From the NCBI GenBank assembly GCA_965220815.1, contig OZ244846.1, forward strand, positions 4,145,045 through 4,209,044: a stretch of DNA of 64,000 nt, given 5' to 3'. Below, in pieces: positions 33,337 through 64,000 of this stretch. The stretch's first letter is position 1; the number at the start of each line of letters is the position of its first letter. The stretch comes from Gammaproteobacteria bacterium (lineage in GTDB: Bacteria > Pseudomonadota > Gammaproteobacteria > Eutrophobiales > Eutrophobiaceae). Below the pieces are notes generated by a model, which made no database searches, was not told the DNA's origin, and saw nothing but the letters and a program-made list of their open reading frames with translations. A program made the translations under genes and the position numbers.

Positions 33337-33481
33337 GGGGTCAGAGTAAAAATACACAGAGACAATGGGGACGGACTTCAAGTCCGTCCCCGGCATGCCG
33401 AGATGTGTGGGGTCAGAGTAAAATTTCTGGCGAAATTCTTACTCTGACCCCGGAATTCGCCGGAAATTTTACTCTGACCCC
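33337..33481. repeat. tandem cluster of REP-like elements plus an embedded GC hairpin
   Basis: Arms GGGGTCAGAGTAAAA at 33337 and 33409. Right arms (T)TTACTCTGACCCC ending 33451 and 33481. Perfect hairpin GGGGACGGACT-tcaa-AGTCCGTCCCC at 33367-33391. Confidence 0.6.
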
Positions 33482-39992: not shown

Positions 39993-40051
39993 GGGGTCAG
40001 AGTAAAAATTCTCCGAATTTCTTACTCTGACCCCAATGATCCTCTGACCCC
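39993..40051. repeat. REP-like palindromic element, short variant
   Basis: GGGGTCAGAGTAAAAATTCTCCGAATTTCTTACTCTGACCCC, then CTCTGACCCC. Confidence 0.6.
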
Positions 40052-57003: not shown

Positions 57004-57115
57004 GTCAAGAAAATTCTGCTGATGCCTGCGAAGGCATGCAATGTGGAATATGTAAAAGCGTAGAGCGAATCAGGGAAGGAGTCAAACATTTCAATACATG
57101 GGGTCACCCATTAGC

Positions 57116-58369
57116 CAGGGCAAGATCATACTTTTTGTCATAAGTAAGAGGTTTTTTATTCCAATAAGATATAGATAAGTGGGGAACTCATGGGTTTTGC
57201 GGGGATCAGATCAGTAATTACCCCAAACTGAGGAGATTCCCATGAGTTTACTGACCCATTTGGCGACGATTGACGACCCGCGGCGTGATATTAACAAGAA
57301 GCATGAGTTATTGGACATTCTGTTTCTGACAGTGAGTGCGGTGCTGTCGGGGGCAGAAGGCTGGAAAGACATCAAGGAATTCGGTGATGAGAAGCTGGAT
57401 TGGCTGCGTCGCTACCGGCCGTTTTTGAACGGGATGCCGGTGGATGACACGATTGCGCGGGTGGTGCGGGCGCTGGACCCGGAGCAGTTCAACCGGGCGT
57501 TTATCGATTGGGTGAATGAGGTACGGGCGGCGTCCGGTCAGGAGCAGATAGCGCTGGACGGGAAGACCCTGCGGCGGTCTCATGACGGGGAGAAACACAC
57601 GGCCCTGCACAGCATCACGGCCTGGGGACATGAGTGCGGGTTGGTATTGGCGCAGATGAAGTCACAGGGGAAGAAGAATGAGCAGTCGTCGGTGATGGAG
57701 ATGCTGGAGTTGTTGCAGGTGAAGGGGGCGCATATCACGGCGGATGCGATGAATACGCAGAAGAAGATAGCGCAGAAGATTCACAAGAAAGGCGGCGATT
57801 ACACGTTGTCGCTGAAGGACAATCACAAGACGTTGCGCAAGGAAATACAGGCGTACTTTCATAAGGTTACGCGCGATGCGCCGCAGCAGGTAGCGGTGCA
57901 TGAGGAGGTGGACGGCGGGCATGGCCGGATAGAGAAACGCACCTGCCGGCAGTTGCCGGTGGATGAGTGGGTGAGTGGGGCGGCCAGGTGGCCGGGCTTG
58001 CAAACCCTCATTGAGATGGAGCGGGAGCGGCGCCTGCCCGGGAAAGCGGTGGAGACGGAGATACATTACTATATCAGCTCCTTGCCCGTGGATGCCCAGC
58101 GGGTGGCGCAGGGGATACGGCGGCACTGGGAGGTGGAGAACAAGGCGCATTGGGTGCTGGATGTGGCCTTTAAGGAGGATGACAGTCGCATCCGCAAGGG
58201 GGACGGGGCGGAGAACGTGGCGATTATCCGGCGCTTCTGTCTGAACCTGGCGCGGTTGGACCCCAGGAAGAACAGCATGCGGGGGAAACTCAAGCAGGCC
58301 GGGTGGAGTGATACCAGACGGGCGGAAATCCTGTTCGGAGCAGACATATAAAAGTATGCGGTTGCCCTG
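57116..58369 (+). mobile_element. ISAs1-family insertion sequence with a 10-bp target-site duplication
   Basis: Imperfect ~20-bp terminal inverted repeats CAGGGCAAGATCATACTTTT / rc CAGGGCAACCGCATACTTTT. Direct repeat ACCCATTAGC at 57106-57115 and 58370-58379. 1254 bp. Confidence 0.7.
57242..58351 (+). CDS. ISAs1-family transposase (H-repeat-associated / YhhI-like)
   Basis: MSLLTHLATIDDPRRDINKKHELLDILFL… N-terminus and DDE core characteristic of ISAs1. Confidence 0.85.
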   Translation: MSLLTHLATIDDPRRDINKKHELLDILFLTVSAVLSGAEGWKDIKEFGDEKLDWLRRYRPFLNGMPVDDTIARVVRALDPEQFNRAFIDWVNEVRAASGQEQIALDGKTLRRSHDGEKHTALHSITAWGHECGLVLAQMKSQGKKNEQSSVMEMLELLQVKGAHITADAMNTQKKIAQKIHKKGGDYTLSLKDNHKTLRKEIQAYFHKVTRDAPQQVAVHEEVDGGHGRIEKRTCRQLPVDEWVSGAARWPGLQTLIEMERERRLPGKAVETEIHYYISSLPVDAQRVAQGIRRHWEVENKAHWVLDVAFKEDDSRIRKGDGAENVAIIRRFCLNLARLDPRKNSMRGKLKQAGWSDTRRAEILFGADI

Positions 58370-58379
58370 ACCCATTAGC

Positions 58380-59830
58380 CAGTCGTTGTCAAGTGGCACA
58401 GATTAACCCTCCTGAATAAACAGGTATTATAAACCAAGCACCAGATTGAGCTACGCACCTGTTGTTTCGCTCAAGTGTTGTCGTCGTCTACCCCTACGCA
58501 ACAGTCACCCATCAGGATCAAGTCCCCCGGAGGAGACCCTGGCTTGCGCCCCAGAAACCTATCAGTACCACCCCGCGTCCACGGGCATTAAACAGATTCA
58601 CGGCCTTGACATCGACCACCCTATCGGTCGGCTCACGGTGTGGGCGTATCCTCTTCTCTGTGTGCAACGTGACGCACCCGGACCAATCAGAGTCACGGGT
58701 TATGACCCAACCTCACCGCGGGTTAACCGGGTGCGTCAAACCCTATACAAACACTTTGTCTTCGTCGAACGGCACCCCTCTCAATAGAATGTAATAACAG
58801 GCCCGCGCCAGTTTATGCGCCAGCGCCTTCAAGGCCACCACCCGGTGTGTCTTCGCCTCCTTGCGCTGGTAGAACCGACGCGCCTTGTCATGATGCCGGA
58901 CGGCCAGGTTGGCCGCCTCCATGTACGCCCAGGCCAGGTAGTGATTACCGTTCTTGCGATTGCCCTCGCCCTTCTTCCTGCCGTTGCTCTCCCGCCGAGA
59001 GGCCACACAACGACAGTAGGAGGCATACTGCCCCACACTGCCAAACCGGCTCACCGGCCCGGTCTCCAGTAAAATCGTCTGCGCCAGGATCGGCCCGATG
59101 CCGCACACACTCTGTAACAACCGGTAATCCCGGTCCGCCCGCACCTGCGCCAGCACCGCCCGCTCCAACGCCCTGACCTGCGCATCCAGGGCCCGGCTCA
59201 TATGCAAATTGCACTGCAACGCCAACTGTACGTTCGCATCGCCCAGCACCGGACACTCGAAGCCCTTGGCCTTCACCTCACTCACCGGGATCGCCTGCCC
59301 CGTCAAGCGGTGGTACTGCGTCTTGAAACTCAACAGGTGCCGGGTGCGGTCCTGCACCAGTTGCAGCCGCTTGCGCAGCACGTCCCGCAAACCCCGCAAG
59401 GCCGGCGGATAGATATACCCCGTCGGTAATATCCTTAAACGCATCAGGTGCGCCAGGTGAAACGCATCGTAGCGGTCATCCGTGCGCTTGAGACCCTGGT
59501 ACTGCACCACCTTCGCCGGATTCACCAGGCGCACCGCAAACCCCGCACCCTGCAACGCATCCGCCAGCCAGTACCAGTTGAAGGTCGACTCCACCGCCAC
59601 CGCCTCCAACTCTCGTTGATAGGGCGAGAGCGCCCCCGTAATAACCGCCGCATCGTTCCTGAAACGCCGCTCCAGCACACGCGTGTCCTGCTCGTCAATC
59701 ACGCACACGTAACTATTGTTTGAATGTAAATCAATCCCCGCATATAGTGTCATGGTCAGTCTCCTCATGTTGAATGGTAACCACCCAACAGTCTAACCTG
59801 CCTCGGCAGGTTAGGGAGACTGGCTTATGA
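58380..59830 (-). mobile_element. IS110-family insertion sequence (copy 2), approximate extent
   Basis: Contains the IS110 transposase. A 9-bp-stem hairpin TAACCTGCC-tcg-GCAGGTTA lies just upstream of the tnp start. Ends not defined (no IRs in this family). Confidence 0.35.
58743..59753 (-). CDS. IS110-family (DEDD) transposase
   Basis: MTLYAGIDLHSNNSYVCVIDE… DEDD N-terminal domain. C-terminal Transposase_20 region (GIGPILAQTILLETG). ATG at 59753. Confidence 0.85.
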   Translation of the reverse strand: MTLYAGIDLHSNNSYVCVIDEQDTRVLERRFRNDAAVITGALSPYQRELEAVAVESTFNWYWLADALQGAGFAVRLVNPAKVVQYQGLKRTDDRYDAFHLAHLMRLRILPTGYIYPPALRGLRDVLRKRLQLVQDRTRHLLSFKTQYHRLTGQAIPVSEVKAKGFECPVLGDANVQLALQCNLHMSRALDAQVRALERAVLAQVRADRDYRLLQSVCGIGPILAQTILLETGPVSRFGSVGQYASYCRCVASRRESNGRKKGEGNRKNGNHYLAWAYMEAANLAVRHHDKARRFYQRKEAKTHRVVALKALAHKLARACYYILLRGVPFDEDKVFV

Positions 59831-59877
59831 GTATCAGAGTAAACATTCTTCGAATTTCTTTCTCTGACCCCGGAATT
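59831..59877. repeat. degenerate REP-like element (short variant) abutting the IS110 copy
   Basis: GTATCAGAGTAAACATTCTTCGAATTTCTTTCTCTGACCCCGGAATT. Homologous to 33409-33458 and 39993-40034, with the left arm eroded. Confidence 0.5.
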
Positions 59878-59965
59878 GAGAGCGCCTGAATTCCCGCATT
59901 GCCCGCGGCACTTTTTTTATGGATAATGGTCAAAGGCTTACCCGGCAGAATTGAGCAGGCATCCA

Positions 59966-60472: not shown

Positions 60473-61395
60473 ACCTCTCCTTTGCCGGCACGCCTGATAT
60501 CGCGGCAGTCATTCTGGGCGCGCTGATCGATACCCCGCAGCACCGAATCCGGCATGTTTACACCCAACCCGACCGGCGGGCGGGGCGCGGCAGGAAGACC
60601 CGTCCGAGTCCGGTCAAGCAGCTCGCTCAACAGTTCGCAATTCCCGTCAAACAGCCCGCGACCCCGGCTGAACTCGCGCAGGACACCGACCTGGCCGGCC
60701 TCGATGCGCTGATCGTCGCCGCCTACGGTCTGATTATTCCTGCATCGGTCCTGTCAGGACCCCGCTACGGTTGCATCAACGTCCACACCTCGTTACTGCC
60801 CAGGTGGCGCGGCGCGGCCCCTATCCAGCGGGCAATCCAGGCGGGAGACAGGGAGACCGGTGTTTCAATCATGCTCATGGACAGCGGCATCGATACCGGG
60901 AAGATCCTGTTGCAGAAATCCTGCGGCATTCGCGACGACGATACCTCCCTGTCCCTGTCCGGGCGGCTGGCAGCGCTGGGAAGTGAATCCCTGCTCGAGG
61001 CCCTGGCCGCAACGGCAGACGCTTCCATCGACCTGACCGACCAGGACGACAGGCTCGCCACCTATGCGCACAAGGTGAGCAAGCAGGAGGCGGAAATCGA
61101 CTGGAATGCGGGGGCGGAACAGATCGGGAGGACCATCCGCGCGTTCAACCCGGCGCCGGTCGCGTTTACTAGTCTGGACAACGTGAAAATTCGCGTATGG
61201 GAAGCCATTACCCTGGATACCGGAGTGCAAAACGGCAAACCCGGCGAGATCATTGCCTACGGCCCCGAAGGACTGGACGTCACGACCGGAAGCGGAACCT
61301 TGCGCATTCTCACCCTGCAACTGGAAGGGAAGAAAAAACAGGGCATCAGGGAGATCCATAACGGCTATCCCCGCCTTTTCGTTCCGGAAAAATGA
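60469..61395 (+). CDS. fmt: methionyl-tRNA formyltransferase
   Basis: FAGTPDIAAV N-terminus, HTSLLPRWRGAAPIQ formyltransferase motif, C-terminal OB domain. GTG overlapping the def stop. Confidence 0.9.
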   Translation: MNLSFAGTPDIAAVILGALIDTPQHRIRHVYTQPDRRAGRGRKTRPSPVKQLAQQFAIPVKQPATPAELAQDTDLAGLDALIVAAYGLIIPASVLSGPRYGCINVHTSLLPRWRGAAPIQRAIQAGDRETGVSIMLMDSGIDTGKILLQKSCGIRDDDTSLSLSGRLAALGSESLLEALAATADASIDLTDQDDRLATYAHKVSKQEAEIDWNAGAEQIGRTIRAFNPAPVAFTSLDNVKIRVWEAITLDTGVQNGKPGEIIAYGPEGLDVTTGSGTLRILTLQLEGKKKQGIREIHNGYPRLFVPEK

Positions 61396-62693
61396 ACCTC
61401 CGCGCGCTTGCCGCAAAGGCCGTCCGGCGGGTTGCCGATACCGGACTGACTCTGGACGCGGCGCTGGCAGAGTGCCTGCCTGTTATCGAACGCCGGGACG
61501 ATCGCGGGTTCGTCAAGGAACTTTGCTTCGGGACCCTGCGCTGGTTCGATCAACTGGAATTCCTTCTGGAACGGTACCTGGACAAACCCCTGAAAGCGCG
61601 GGACAGCGATATCAGGATGCTTATCCTGGTCGGTCTCTACCAACTGCACCGCCTGGACACGCCCGCCCATGCAGCGATCTCGGAAACGGTAAATGCAGCG
61701 GTTGAACTTGGCAAGGAATGGGCAAAACCCCTCATCAACGCGGTGCTGAGGCGCTCGCAACGTGAATACCCGCGGCTCGAAACGGAACTTGGCCTGTACC
61801 CCGCTGCGTACTATTCCCATCCGGGATGGCTGTCGGACAGTATCAAACAGGACTGGCCCGACCTGTGGGAAGCCATTTTACAGGCGAATAATCAACGGCC
61901 GCCGCAACACCTGCGGGTAAACGTATTGCGCAGTTCCAGAGAAAATTACCTGGAGGATTTGCGGCAGGCCGGGATCCGGGCGCAATCATGTGACGCGGCG
62001 CCCTGCGCGGTTCAGGTGCTGGATCCGGTTGACGTCAACCGGTTACCCGGTTTCGATGGCGGCCAGGTATCGGTACAGGATGCCGGCGCCCAGCTTGCGG
62101 CAATCCTGCTGGACCCGCAACCGGGAGACAGGGTCCTTGACGCTTGTGCAGCGCCCGGCGGGAAAACCGCTCATATCTGCGAACTGCAACCGGCCATTGC
62201 CGAAATAACGGCCCTGGATGTCGATGAGAAACGCCTGACGCTGCTACACGACACCCTGAACAGGCTGAAGCTGGAGGCAACCGTAACCAGGGCGGATGCG
62301 GCCAGCCCGGACACCTGGTGGGACGGCCGCCTGTATGACCGCATCCTGGTGGATGCGCCGTGCAGCGCTACCGGGGTCATCCGCCGCCATCCGGATATCA
62401 AACGCCTGAAAACACCGGGACAGTTCCCAGCGTTGCAGCGTAGCCAGACAGGACTGCTGGCAGCCCTGTGGCCGTTACTGAGACCGGGCGGCAGACTGGT
62501 CTATTCAACCTGTTCCATGTTGCATGGGGAAAACGACCGGGTAGTCGAAACATTCCTTGAAAACCATCCTTCGGCAACCCCGGAAACGATCCGGTCACGA
62601 TGGGGAACCGCTGCTGCCTATGGCCGTCAACTGCTGCCTTGCCTGGATAATACAGACGGGTTTTACTACGCGATGCTGACCAAGACAGGTTGA
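61392..62693 (+). CDS. rsmB: 16S rRNA (cytosine967-C5)-methyltransferase RsmB
   Basis: NusB-like N-terminus. SAM motif LDACAAPGGKT. Catalytic PCSATG and TCS cysteine motifs. Confidence 0.9.
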   Translation: MNLRALAAKAVRRVADTGLTLDAALAECLPVIERRDDRGFVKELCFGTLRWFDQLEFLLERYLDKPLKARDSDIRMLILVGLYQLHRLDTPAHAAISETVNAAVELGKEWAKPLINAVLRRSQREYPRLETELGLYPAAYYSHPGWLSDSIKQDWPDLWEAILQANNQRPPQHLRVNVLRSSRENYLEDLRQAGIRAQSCDAAPCAVQVLDPVDVNRLPGFDGGQVSVQDAGAQLAAILLDPQPGDRVLDACAAPGGKTAHICELQPAIAEITALDVDEKRLTLLHDTLNRLKLEATVTRADAASPDTWWDGRLYDRILVDAPCSATGVIRRHPDIKRLKTPGQFPALQRSQTGLLAALWPLLRPGGRLVYSTCSMLHGENDRVVETFLENHPSATPETIRSRWGTAAAYGRQLLPCLDNTDGFYYAMLTKTG

Positions 62694-62708
62694 CAGGCAT
62701 GTCATACA

Positions 62709-63638
62709 ATGTCCAACTGTTTGAATTCATTTAACCAGTATTCGGGATACCAGTGGGAAAGATATTATTTTGTTGATCAGCATCAAATGACAGGATGTAA
62801 AATTGCAGCTTCCTTCGGGGAACAGCAAGTAAGACCAGTAGCGAGCATGACGAAAAAAAACAGACATTTAGCCCAGTTCGGATTCAGCTTCAAACGCGCC
62901 GGCGCTCATAGTGCCCGCACAATGATGCTTGAGGAACTAATCGCCTTATTGGCCTATGTCAAACATCCTGAAGCTGGTAAAAAAGACTACCTCCGAGCCA
63001 TTGATGATGAAAATTGTTTAGGCAAACGCTCCGGCAAAACCCGCAGTCTCACGTATCGACACCTGGTTGATCTTTACTCACTCGATCGCGCTAATGTCAT
63101 TTTCAGGGCTCTACTCTATTTTTGGAATCGTGACATAGATGGCCGACCCTTACTGGCGCTACTCTGCACATACGCTCGGGACCCTATTTTCCACTCGACG
63201 GCAACATTCATTCTAAAGTATCCAGAAGGCACAACGATTACCCGTGAGTCTCTCGAGGAGTTTATCGACAGCCAGGAGCCCGGTCGATTCAGCAAGGCGA
63301 CACTGACATCGACTGCTCAGAACATCAATTCGACCTGGACCAAATCCGGCCACCTCCTTGGCCGCGCCAGAAAGGTACGCACCCGAGCCAATCCAACCGC
63401 CGGGAGTGTTTCCTACGCTTTGCTCCTCGGCTATCTCACAGGCGCGCGCGGACAGGCGCTTTTTCAATCAGAATATATCAAGTTGCTTGACCGAACCTTT
63501 GATAAGACCATTGAACTTGCCGAAGAGGCCTCTCGAAAAGGATGGATCGTATTCAAGCGTGTGAGTGATGTCATTGAGGTTCTGTTCCCGAACCTGATCA
63601 ATCAAGAAGAAATGGAGTGGCTCCGTGAGCAGAATTAA
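62709..63638 (+). CDS. hypothetical protein, first gene of a post-rsmB island (start codon uncertain)
   Basis: 309-aa ORF with no recognisable catalytic motif. Internal alternative start at 62847 (MTKKNRH…). Ends with ATTAA overlapping the next gene. Confidence 0.45.
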   Translation: MSNCLNSFNQYSGYQWERYYFVDQHQMTGCKIAASFGEQQVRPVASMTKKNRHLAQFGFSFKRAGAHSARTMMLEELIALLAYVKHPEAGKKDYLRAIDDENCLGKRSGKTRSLTYRHLVDLYSLDRANVIFRALLYFWNRDIDGRPLLALLCTYARDPIFHSTATFILKYPEGTTITRESLEEFIDSQEPGRFSKATLTSTAQNINSTWTKSGHLLGRARKVRTRANPTAGSVSYALLLGYLTGARGQALFQSEYIKLLDRTFDKTIELAEEASRKGWIVFKRVSDVIEVLFPNLINQEEMEWLREQN

Positions 63639-64000
63639 ACGGCTTATTCATTCCTACAGTAAATATATCTCCATCCCGTGGCGCGATGATGCCGCTGCTG
63701 CACAGCGCGTGATATTCTGTGTTTACAACGAAAATGAAGAACGCTCATTGCGGGCCAAAGTCGGCGAATTTGAAATTGTCACGCGCCAGGCAGACCACGA
63801 ATGGGCCATGTTCGACCTGACGGACACCTTTGCCAACTGGCTCGCCTCACAACGGTACGCCAGGAGTTACTTCCAGGAGCCACATTTGCTCTCCACGTTG
63901 CTACCGAAGTACCTTGCTTTCATCGCCGATGAGTTCGAGAACTTCCTTCAAGAGAACGACACCGGAGCGAATTCCGTTGTGGCAATTCAAGGTGTCGGGT
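63625..64000 (+). CDS. hypothetical protein, second gene of the post-rsmB island (5' partial view; continues beyond the window)
   Basis: GTG 63625 preceded by GGAG at 63614-63617. Open to the window edge: (M)SRIKRLIHSYSKYISIPWRDDAAAAQRVIFCVYNENEE… Not in the ORF track because no stop falls inside the window. Confidence 0.45.
   Translation, partial: MSRIKRLIHSYSKYISIPWRDDAAAAQRVIFCVYNENEERSLRAKVGEFEIVTRQADHEWAMFDLTDTFANWLASQRYARSYFQEPHLLSTLLPKYLAFIADEFENFLQENDTGANSVVAIQGVG

What the first reader, a model, noticed from the sequence alone, without database searches (positions are those of the whole stretch)
62694..64000. Two overlapping genes of unknown function replace the expected trkA slot right after def-fmt-rsmB; candidate lead genes of an unrecognised (possibly BREX-like) system
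In the E. coli-type arrangement trkA follows def-fmt-rsmB. Here rsmB is followed by a 309-aa ORF and, overlapping its stop, a second ORF that runs off the window. Neither matches a family I can name from sequence with confidence. The tight overlap (GTG inside …GTGAGCAGAATTAA) and the position next to a core-gene boundary are typical of defence-island insertion points. The second protein's motif IPW…RVIFCVYNENEE…EFEIV and the two-small-genes-first layout resemble the brxA/brxB start of BREX loci. That resemblance is from memory only and is unverified.
Basis: partly seen in the sequence, partly recalled or inferred. Interest (0 to 1): 0.7.

Follow-up and report, generated by a model that had tools for sequence, protein, structure and literature searches.

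The report
Start of a type 1 BREX locus
The two overlapping genes after rsmB are brxA and brxB, the first genes of an ordinary type 1 BREX anti-phage system that inserted between rsmB and an IclR-family regulator gene; this is a known kind of system, not a new one.

Summary
After def-fmt-rsmB there is an ORF ending at 63638. A second ORF starts at GTG 63625, overlaps it by 14 nt and runs off the window. Both are recognisable. ORF1 is BrxA (PADLOC PDLC02450, E=1.9e-107; AlphaFold model pLDDT 97.6, best PDB match BrxA 7ZGE). ORF2 is the first 125 residues of BrxB (PDLC02469, E=2.7e-47). BrxA most likely starts at ATG 62847 (263 aa), not at 62709 (309 aa).

Two same-lineage genomes share the rsmB junction at 98.6% identity. 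There the locus continues brxC, pglX, pglZ (NCBIfam "BREX-1 PglZ type B") and brxL, with variable cargo genes in between, and the next gene is an IclR-family regulator. In BREX-less relatives (RsmB 82% identical) that regulator follows rsmB directly. The island is therefore a clean 15.6-18.3 kb insertion. trkA is not displaced: in one relative (L092) it starts about 8 kb past brxL.

The same cassette sits in unrelated contexts elsewhere, with edges at window 62766 and 10 nt after brxL. The BREX guess and the insertion idea were right; "unrecognised system" and "trkA slot" were not. This is a known kind of system and interest is low. Whether this genome's locus is complete cannot be seen from the window.

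The parts
61392..62693 (+). rsmB (16S rRNA m5C methyltransferase). Core gene forming the left flank of the island. Not part of BREX.
   Evidence: Pfam PF01189, PF22458 and PF01029. DNA homology with BREX-less relatives L044/L045/L046 runs to 62701 and stops there.
62702..62765 (.). 64-bp AT-rich junction (GC 36%). Shared only with same-lineage genomes L001 and L035. Absent both from BREX-less relatives and from copies of the cassette in other contexts.
   Evidence: (98.6% identity to L001/L035). A promoter-like AAGACA-N17-TACAAT at 62682-62710 overlaps its start (consensus match only).
62766..62846 (+). Conserved 81-bp leader of the BREX cassette, at its left edge. Presumed promoter and 5' UTR of brxA.
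   Evidence: Homology to L002, L003 and L042, which have different upstream genes, starts at 62766. The regulatory role is inferred and was not tested.
62847..63638 (+). brxA, 263 aa. A three-part helix-turn-helix DNA-binding protein: a BrxA core plus an extra C-terminal winged helix. The mechanical ORF extends upstream to ATG 62709.
   Evidence: PADLOC PDLC02450 E=1.9e-107, profile positions 2-259 of 259. AF2 pLDDT 97.6. Foldseek best PDB hit 7ZGE_A BrxA, E=1.9e-4, TMt 0.65. Profile search of PDB gives 7ZGE first, E=4e-4. hhalign against pEFER BrxA gives 91% probability. No Pfam or NCBIfam hit.
63625..64000 (+). brxB, the first 125 of about 183 codons, cut by the window end. GTG start, 14-nt overlap with brxA, GGAG 7 nt upstream (probable translational coupling).
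   Evidence: PADLOC PDLC02469 E=2.7e-47, profile 1-126 of 184. 121-124 of 125 residues identical to the full-length BrxB of L001, L035 and L042. The L001 protein passes Pfam PF08747 BrxB (34 bits, cut-off 26.8).

Best explanation
Window 62766-64000 is the 5' end of a type 1 BREX (bacteriophage exclusion) cassette. It holds a conserved leader, brxA (62847-63638) and the first two thirds of brxB (63625 onward).

In the two sequenced same-lineage genomes the cassette continues brxC, pglX, pglZ (type B) and brxL, with variable accessory defence genes between brxC and pglX and between pglX and pglZ. It occupies the roughly 20-bp spacer between rsmB and an IclR-family regulator gene.

Mechanism, inferred from studied type 1 systems and not shown here:
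- PglX, together with BrxA, BrxB, BrxC and PglZ, N6-methylates one strand of a 6-bp non-palindromic motif in host DNA.
- Unmethylated incoming phage DNA is recognised and its replication is blocked.
- BrxB is an inactive STAND-like adaptor that binds PglZ, a metal-dependent nuclease, and docks it on the N-terminal AAA+ domain of BrxC.
- BrxA is a multi-HTH dsDNA-binding protein that modulates BrxC DNA binding and self-association. Here it carries a third, C-terminal winged helix.
- BrxL is an AAA+/Lon-like DNA-binding ring needed for restriction in most systems.

The 14-nt brxA/brxB overlap with a Shine-Dalgarno sequence inside brxA suggests translational coupling of the two small subunits.
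For: Identity of the two genes.

Synteny: 39 genome loci carry this BrxA, nearly all followed by BrxB and a roughly 1150-aa BrxC.

Downstream genes in relatives:
- L001: BrxC is PDLC02489 and PglX is PDLC02528, both E=0.
- L042, a complete relative 95% identical in DNA over 62766-64000: NCBIfam gives BrxC NF033441 at 952 bits (cut-off 400), PglZ NF033450 'BREX-1 PglZ type B' at 971 bits (cut-off 400), and BrxL TIGR02688 at 449 bits (cut-off 329).
- Same-lineage loci L091 and L092 both show the full six genes followed by iclR.

Insertion: the BREX-less relatives L044, L045 and L046 have rsmB followed directly by iclR. Homology with them stops at window 62701 and resumes 7 nt before the iclR ATG.

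Mobility: the same cassette, with edges at 62766 and 10 nt after the brxL stop, lies in unrelated contexts. BrxA is 75-86% identical across Verrucomicrobiota, Bacteroidota, Chlorobiota and Desulfobacterota. The BREX part has GC 50%, against 60% for def-fmt-rsmB.

Mechanism, from the literature: PMC9240713 (BrxA binds dsDNA through two HTH motifs), PMC12205998 (PglZ is a nuclease and forms a PglZ:BrxB complex), PMC13326643 (BrxB-BrxC-PglZ core complex; BrxA and BrxB modulate BrxC), PMC12839542 (three-part BrxA variants; embedded auxiliary effectors), PMC6326788.
Against: - Only brxA and 68% of brxB lie in the window. brxC, pglX, pglZ and brxL are seen only in relatives (93-96% DNA identity), so completeness in this genome is not shown.
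- Exact-sequence look-ups of the window's own proteins found no contig.
- Pfam PF08849 (BrxA/DUF1819) and NCBIfam do not hit this BrxA. Homology to canonical BrxA is remote: 19% identity in the structural alignment.
- PglX of the relative scores below NCBIfam's BREX-1 cut-off (359 bits against 500), though BREX-1 is the best-scoring type.
- No methylation or phage-resistance data exist for this PglZ-type-B subfamily, as far as I found.
Confidence: 0.9

Rival explanations
1. The locus in this particular genome is a decayed or truncated BREX remnant: brxA-brxB followed by disrupted or missing core genes. It would then be non-functional.
For: The window ends inside brxB, so nothing downstream is seen. 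This genome is IS-active, with a 2.8-kb IS insertion at 57096-59884 that L001 and L035 lack. One relative contig (L041) shows only fragmentary pglX calls of 386 and 246 aa.
Against: brxA and the brxB fragment are intact and 94-99% identical in protein to those of complete loci. Both same-lineage genomes carry all six core genes uninterrupted.
Confidence: 0.08
2. The pair belongs to another BREX type (5 or 6) or to a BREX-related system that merely shares BrxA/BrxB-like proteins.
For: BrxA- and BrxB-like proteins occur in all BREX types (PMC12839542). This BrxA is atypical: 263 aa with no DUF1819 hit.
Against: Relatives with 93-95% identical brxA-brxB DNA end in pglZ type B plus brxL, not in brxHII, brxD or brxE. 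The BREX-5 PglZ model scores only 49 bits against 971 for BREX-1 type B.
Confidence: 0.02
3. The two genes are conserved housekeeping neighbours of rsmB with a non-defence role.
For: They are tightly packed after a core operon with no predicted terminator in between.
Against: Relatives with 82% and 67% identical RsmB lack them. The same genes occur next to unrelated genes in many phyla. They give strong matches to defence profiles.
Confidence: 0.01

Closest known systems
Type 1 BREX of Escherichia fergusonii plasmid pEFER (brxR-brxA-brxB-brxC-brxU-pglX-pglZ-brxL; NC_011743; BrxA structure 7ZGE)
   Same: Same six core families in the same order. brxA and brxB overlap. An accessory defence gene is embedded among the core genes. 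The BrxA fold matches over about 190 residues. pEFER BrxA and BrxB hit the same PADLOC profiles as the window proteins, at E=7e-7 and 3.5e-4.
   Different: pEFER BrxA is 199 aa with two HTH motifs (DUF1819); here BrxA is 263 aa with an extra C-terminal winged helix and no Pfam hit. pEFER PglZ is 'type A' at 885 aa; here it is type B at 781 aa. pEFER has a WYL regulator, BrxR, upstream; none lies upstream here, where rsmB abuts the cassette. Sequence identity is in the twilight zone.
Unannotated BREX-1 locus on Pseudomonas veronii 1YdBTEX2 plasmid LT599585 (L040)
   Same: Hits the identical PADLOC sub-family models for all six genes (PDLC02450, 02469, 02489, 02528, 02566, 02506). BrxA is 259 aa and 44% identical. 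Cargo genes sit between pglX and pglZ.
   Different: It is plasmid-borne, has a WYL-domain gene directly upstream, and carries different cargo (a 325-aa protein plus a GmrSD/Orf5-like enzyme).
Orthologous chromosomal loci in Gammaproteobacteria MAGs JAJDUB010000070 (L001/L091) and CBDBDW010000002 (L035/L092)
   Same: Same rsmB junction (98.6% identity over the 64-bp junction). brxA-brxB DNA is about 94.5% identical. The same iclR right flank follows.
   Different: Cargo differs between the two. L091 has a 1179-aa unknown protein, an AAA_15/21 ATPase and DUF4276. L092 has a Schlafen/AlbA_2-HATPase_c_4 protein and DUF3644 (PDC-S19). Their brxC and pglX are only 84-87% identical to each other. 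Both lack the window's IS insertion at 57096-59884.
SspB of the Ssp phosphorothioate-sensing systems (PDB 6LB9, 6JUF)
   Same: Second-best structural matches to the BrxA model. The shared HTH arrangement is already noted in PMC9240713.
   Different: This is fold-level resemblance only. No ssp or dnd genes are in the neighbourhood, and TM-scores are lower when normalised to the target.

Membership tests
BREX type 1 system | brxA: small multi-HTH DNA-binding protein encoded first in the operon | tested here: met
   PADLOC PDLC02450 E=1.9e-107. AF2 model pLDDT 97.6, best PDB match 7ZGE BrxA. Profile-to-PDB search and hhalign support remote homology.
BREX type 1 system | brxB (DUF1788) immediately downstream of brxA | tested here: met
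   PDLC02469 E=2.7e-47 over the 125 residues present. The near-identical full-length orthologue passes Pfam PF08747.
BREX type 1 system | brxC P-loop ATPase, pglX N6-adenine methyltransferase, pglZ and brxL, in that order, in the same locus | not testable with these tools
   All lie beyond the window end at 64000. They are present in same-lineage L091 and L092 and in L042: BrxC NF033441 at 952 bits, PglZ NF033450 at 971 bits, BrxL TIGR02688 at 449 bits. PglX matches BREX_1_MTaseX best, at 359 bits, below the 500-bit cut-off.
BREX type 1 system | One-strand m6A methylation of a 6-bp non-palindromic motif, and exclusion of unmethylated phage | not testable with these tools
   Needs a methylome and phage assays.
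Pfam PF08849 (BrxA / DUF1819) | Score above the gathering threshold against the Pfam HMM | tested here: not met
   No Pfam family at E<=0.01 and no precomputed Pfam domain on any of 120 homologues. The protein is a remote, longer branch. It fits the 'tripartite BrxA' variants described in PMC12839542.
Pfam PF08747 (BrxB / DUF1788) | Score above the gathering threshold | tested here: inconclusive
   The window fragment gives no hit. The region that matches Pfam, residues 101-169 of the full protein, is mostly beyond the window end. The L001 orthologue scores 34 bits against a 26.8-bit cut-off.
BREX types 5 and 6 | BrxHII or BrxHI helicase (plus BrxD and BrxE) instead of BrxL | tested here: not met
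   Relatives end in BrxL. The BREX-5 PglZ model scores only 49 bits.
Genomic island inserted at a core-gene boundary | An empty site in related genomes, and the same cassette in other contexts | tested here: met
   Empty site in L044, L045 and L046. Both junctions mapped. Other contexts in L002, L003, L042 and L041. No flanking direct or inverted repeat of 7 nt or more, no tRNA and no recombinase gene.

The most novel reading that the evidence does not exclude
The BREX-1/PglZ-B cassette moves between phyla as a sharply bounded unit, from 81 bp upstream of brxA to 10 bp after brxL. It has no recombinase, tRNA target or flanking repeats, which would imply an undescribed way of acquiring it. Its internal cargo slots turn over even between genomes that share the same insertion. 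One slot can hold a widespread 1179-aa protein with no Pfam, PADLOC or NCBIfam match, which also occurs alone in a Microbulbifer mobile island. That protein would be an uncharacterised single-gene defence candidate and may also lie just beyond this window.
Probability: 0.2. Interest if true: 0.45.

Novelty: new member of a known kind. Interest (0 to 1): 0.15.

Why it matters
Mainly as an annotation fix. In this large BREX-1 subfamily, BrxA forms 1169 clusters at 50% identity. BrxA, and in the relatives checked BrxB too, get no Pfam (BrxA) or NCBIfam name, and the BrxA homologues listed are labelled 'hypothetical protein' where named at all. From sequence alone the start of the locus therefore looks unknown. 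The case also gives a cleanly mapped example of a BREX island dropped into a 20-bp core-gene spacer, with cargo that differs between near-identical insertions. It does not open a new biological question.

Tried and rejected
- Exact-sequence look-ups of the window's BrxA (three alternative starts) and RsmB found no contig. The window's own continuation could not be fetched.
- Pfam and NCBIfam gave nothing for BrxA or the BrxB fragment. phmmer of BrxA against PDB gave nothing. BrxB against PDB gave only weak DUF1788 hits (E=0.08).
- The first AF2 run used a shallow alignment of sequences 75-94% identical and was unusable (pLDDT 51). hhalign with that alignment gave 3.5% probability. Both were superseded by the diverse alignment A3.
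- trkA, iclR, DUF4390 and NtrY/X homologues were searched for in the window by tblastn and none was found. The 'trkA replaced' idea was rejected after trkA was seen downstream in L092.
- Target-site duplications or terminal inverted repeats at the island ends: none of 7 nt or more. tRNA genes within 45-64 kb: none. Intrinsic terminator between rsmB and brxA: none predicted.
- An Ssp/Dnd affiliation, suggested by the SspB fold hits, was rejected because no such genes are nearby.

Full report
**Observation.**
- rsmB (61392-62693; Pfam PF01189, PF22458 and PF01029) follows def and fmt.
- A + strand ORF ends at 63638.
- A second ORF starts at GTG 63625, inside ...GTGAGCAGAATTAA, and stays open to 64000. 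The quoted peptide motifs are present.
- A GGAG lies 7 nt before the GTG. With the 14-nt overlap this suggests translational coupling, which is an inference.

**Identity of the two genes.**
- PADLOC does. ORF1 matches BrxA model PDLC02450 end to end (E=1.9e-107). The ORF2 fragment matches positions 1-126 of the 184-position BrxB model PDLC02469 (E=2.7e-47).
- The BrxB fragment is 121-124 of 125 residues identical to full-length proteins in relatives. One of these passes Pfam PF08747 BrxB.

**Is this BrxA a true homologue of BrxA, or only its positional counterpart?** I tested this in four ways.
- Canonical pEFER BrxA (DUF1819) and BrxB (DUF1788) hit the same PADLOC models at E=7e-7 and 3.5e-4.
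- A whole-library HMMER search found 1169 clusters at 50% identity. A 100-sequence alignment of these (A3) gave 91% hhalign probability against pEFER BrxA. It also placed PDB 7ZGE (BrxA) first in a profile search, at E=4e-4.
- AlphaFold2 on that alignment gave a pLDDT of 97.6.
- Foldseek against PDB returned 7ZGE_A BrxA as the best hit (E=1.9e-4, TM 0.65 normalised to the target, 190 columns). SspB and the DUF1819 structure 3BHW followed.

The extra C-terminal 60 or so residues (helices 202-230, hairpin 235-246, helix 253-261) form a further winged helix. This matches the 'tripartite BrxA' subset described in PMC12839542.

**Start codon of brxA.** The 309-aa ORF is probably an over-call.
- The profile alignment starts at residue 48.
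- 263 aa is the usual called length among homologues.
- The DNA shared with copies of the cassette in unrelated contexts (L002, L003, L042) begins at 62766, downstream of ATG 62709.
- The ATG at 62787 is lost in L003, while ATG 62847 is conserved in all copies.

**What lies downstream (seen only in relatives).** The window's own continuation is not on record.
- A genome scan found 39 loci with this BrxA. Two Gammaproteobacteria MAGs, L001 and L035, are syntenic with the window from about 50.1 kb to its end at 93-96% DNA identity. The exception is a 2.8-kb IS insertion present only in the window.
- In these two and in L042 (95% identical over 62766-64000) the locus reads brxA, brxB, brxC, pglX, pglZ, brxL.
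- Supporting scores: PADLOC gives E=0 for BrxC and PglX. NCBIfam gives BrxC at 952 bits (cut-off 400), 'BREX-1 system phosphatase PglZ type B' at 971 bits (cut-off 400) and BrxL TIGR02688 at 449 bits (cut-off 329). PglX matches the BREX-1 model best but below its cut-off.
- This is canonical type 1 BREX of the PglZ-B subfamily. A Pseudomonas veronii plasmid carries the same sub-family models for all six genes.

**Insertion and the trkA question.**
- Metagenome relatives with 82% (L044, L045) and 67% (L046) identical RsmB have an IclR-family regulator gene about 20 bp after rsmB. Their homology with the window stops at 62701.
- I fetched the region around pglZ in the L001 and L035 contigs. brxL is followed by that same iclR gene, and homology to the BREX-less genomes resumes 7 nt before its ATG.
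- The island is 18.3 kb in L001 and 15.6 kb in L035.
- In L092 the order beyond iclR is MFS transporter, FAD oxidase, DUF4390, NtrY-like kinase, sigma54 response regulator, trkA. More distant relatives show rsmB-DUF4390-kinase-regulator-trkA.
- So trkA is nearby but was never directly adjacent to rsmB here, and BREX does not replace it.

**Cassette edges and mobility.**
- The edges, defined by other contexts, are window 62766 on the left and 10 nt after the brxL stop on the right.
- There are no flanking repeats, tRNA genes or recombinase genes.
- The BREX part has GC 50%, against 60% for def-fmt-rsmB.
- BrxA is 75-86% identical across several phyla, which indicates frequent horizontal transfer.

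**Mechanism (by homology, not shown here).**
- PglX-dependent one-strand m6A marking of a 6-bp motif distinguishes self from non-self (PMC6326788, PMC11842806).
- BrxB binds PglZ, a metal-dependent nuclease (PMC12205998).
- BrxB, BrxC and PglZ form a core complex whose assembly and DNA binding are modulated by BrxA and BrxB (PMC13326643).
- BrxA binds dsDNA through HTH motifs (PMC9240713).
- No BrxR/WYL regulator precedes brxA here, unlike in pEFER and the P. veronii plasmid.

**Verdict.** The BREX and island-insertion reading is correct. The 'unrecognised system', 'trkA slot' and 309-aa details are not. This is a new member of a well-known kind of system. Interest is low, apart from variable and partly uncharacterised cargo seen in relatives. 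Whether the locus is complete in this genome remains untested.

Noticed in passing
window 57096-59884: A 2.8-kb insertion between dprA and def that same-lineage genomes L001 and L035 lack. It carries an ISAs1-like DDE transposase (57242-58351 +; PF13808 and PF01609) and an IS110-family transposase (58743-59768 -; PF01548 and PF02371).
   Followed up: partly
window 39993-40034, about 33431-33450 and about 59851-59870; L046 3146-3188: A roughly 42-bp palindromic REP-like element (GGGGTCAGAGTAAAAATTC...GAATTTCTTACTCTGACCCC). At least 3 half-site matches occur in the window, against 0.01 expected by chance. One copy sits at the right end of the IS insertion, near the IS110-family gene. Another fills the rsmB-iclR spacer of the BREX-less relative L046.
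   Followed up: partly
L042 10001-13540; L091 4640-8179; L001 18368-20788; L090 10001-13543: A 1179-aa protein lies between pglX and pglZ in some relatives. It has no Pfam, PADLOC or NCBIfam match, yet about 1460 homologues (75% identity or more among those listed), all unnamed or labelled 'hypothetical'. It also occurs alone in a Microbulbifer mobile island next to AlpA and DUF927 genes. This makes it a candidate uncharacterised defence gene.
   Followed up: partly
L091 vs L092 (contigs of L001 and L035): Two genomes with the same insertion site have 96% identical pglZ, brxL and right flank, but only 84-87% identical brxC and pglX, and different cargo. L091 has the 1179-aa protein, an AAA_15/21 ATPase and DUF4276. 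L092 has a Schlafen/AlbA_2-HATPase_c_4 protein and DUF3644 (PDC-S19). The middle of the island has been exchanged by recombination.
   Followed up: partly
L039 17998-20775: An open reading frame of at least 926 aa after pglX with no PADLOC hit. This is another unexplained cargo gene in a related BREX locus.
   Followed up: no
L002, L010, L012, L014, L021, L023-L026, L028, L029, L031, L034, L035 (between brxC and pglX): A gene of roughly 570-594 aa recurs in the brxC-pglX slot of many loci. Where tested (L002; L092, the contig of L035) it is a Schlafen/AlbA_2 plus HATPase_c_4 protein. This matches the Schlafen-kinase-wHTH auxiliary effectors reported in PMC12839542.
   Followed up: partly
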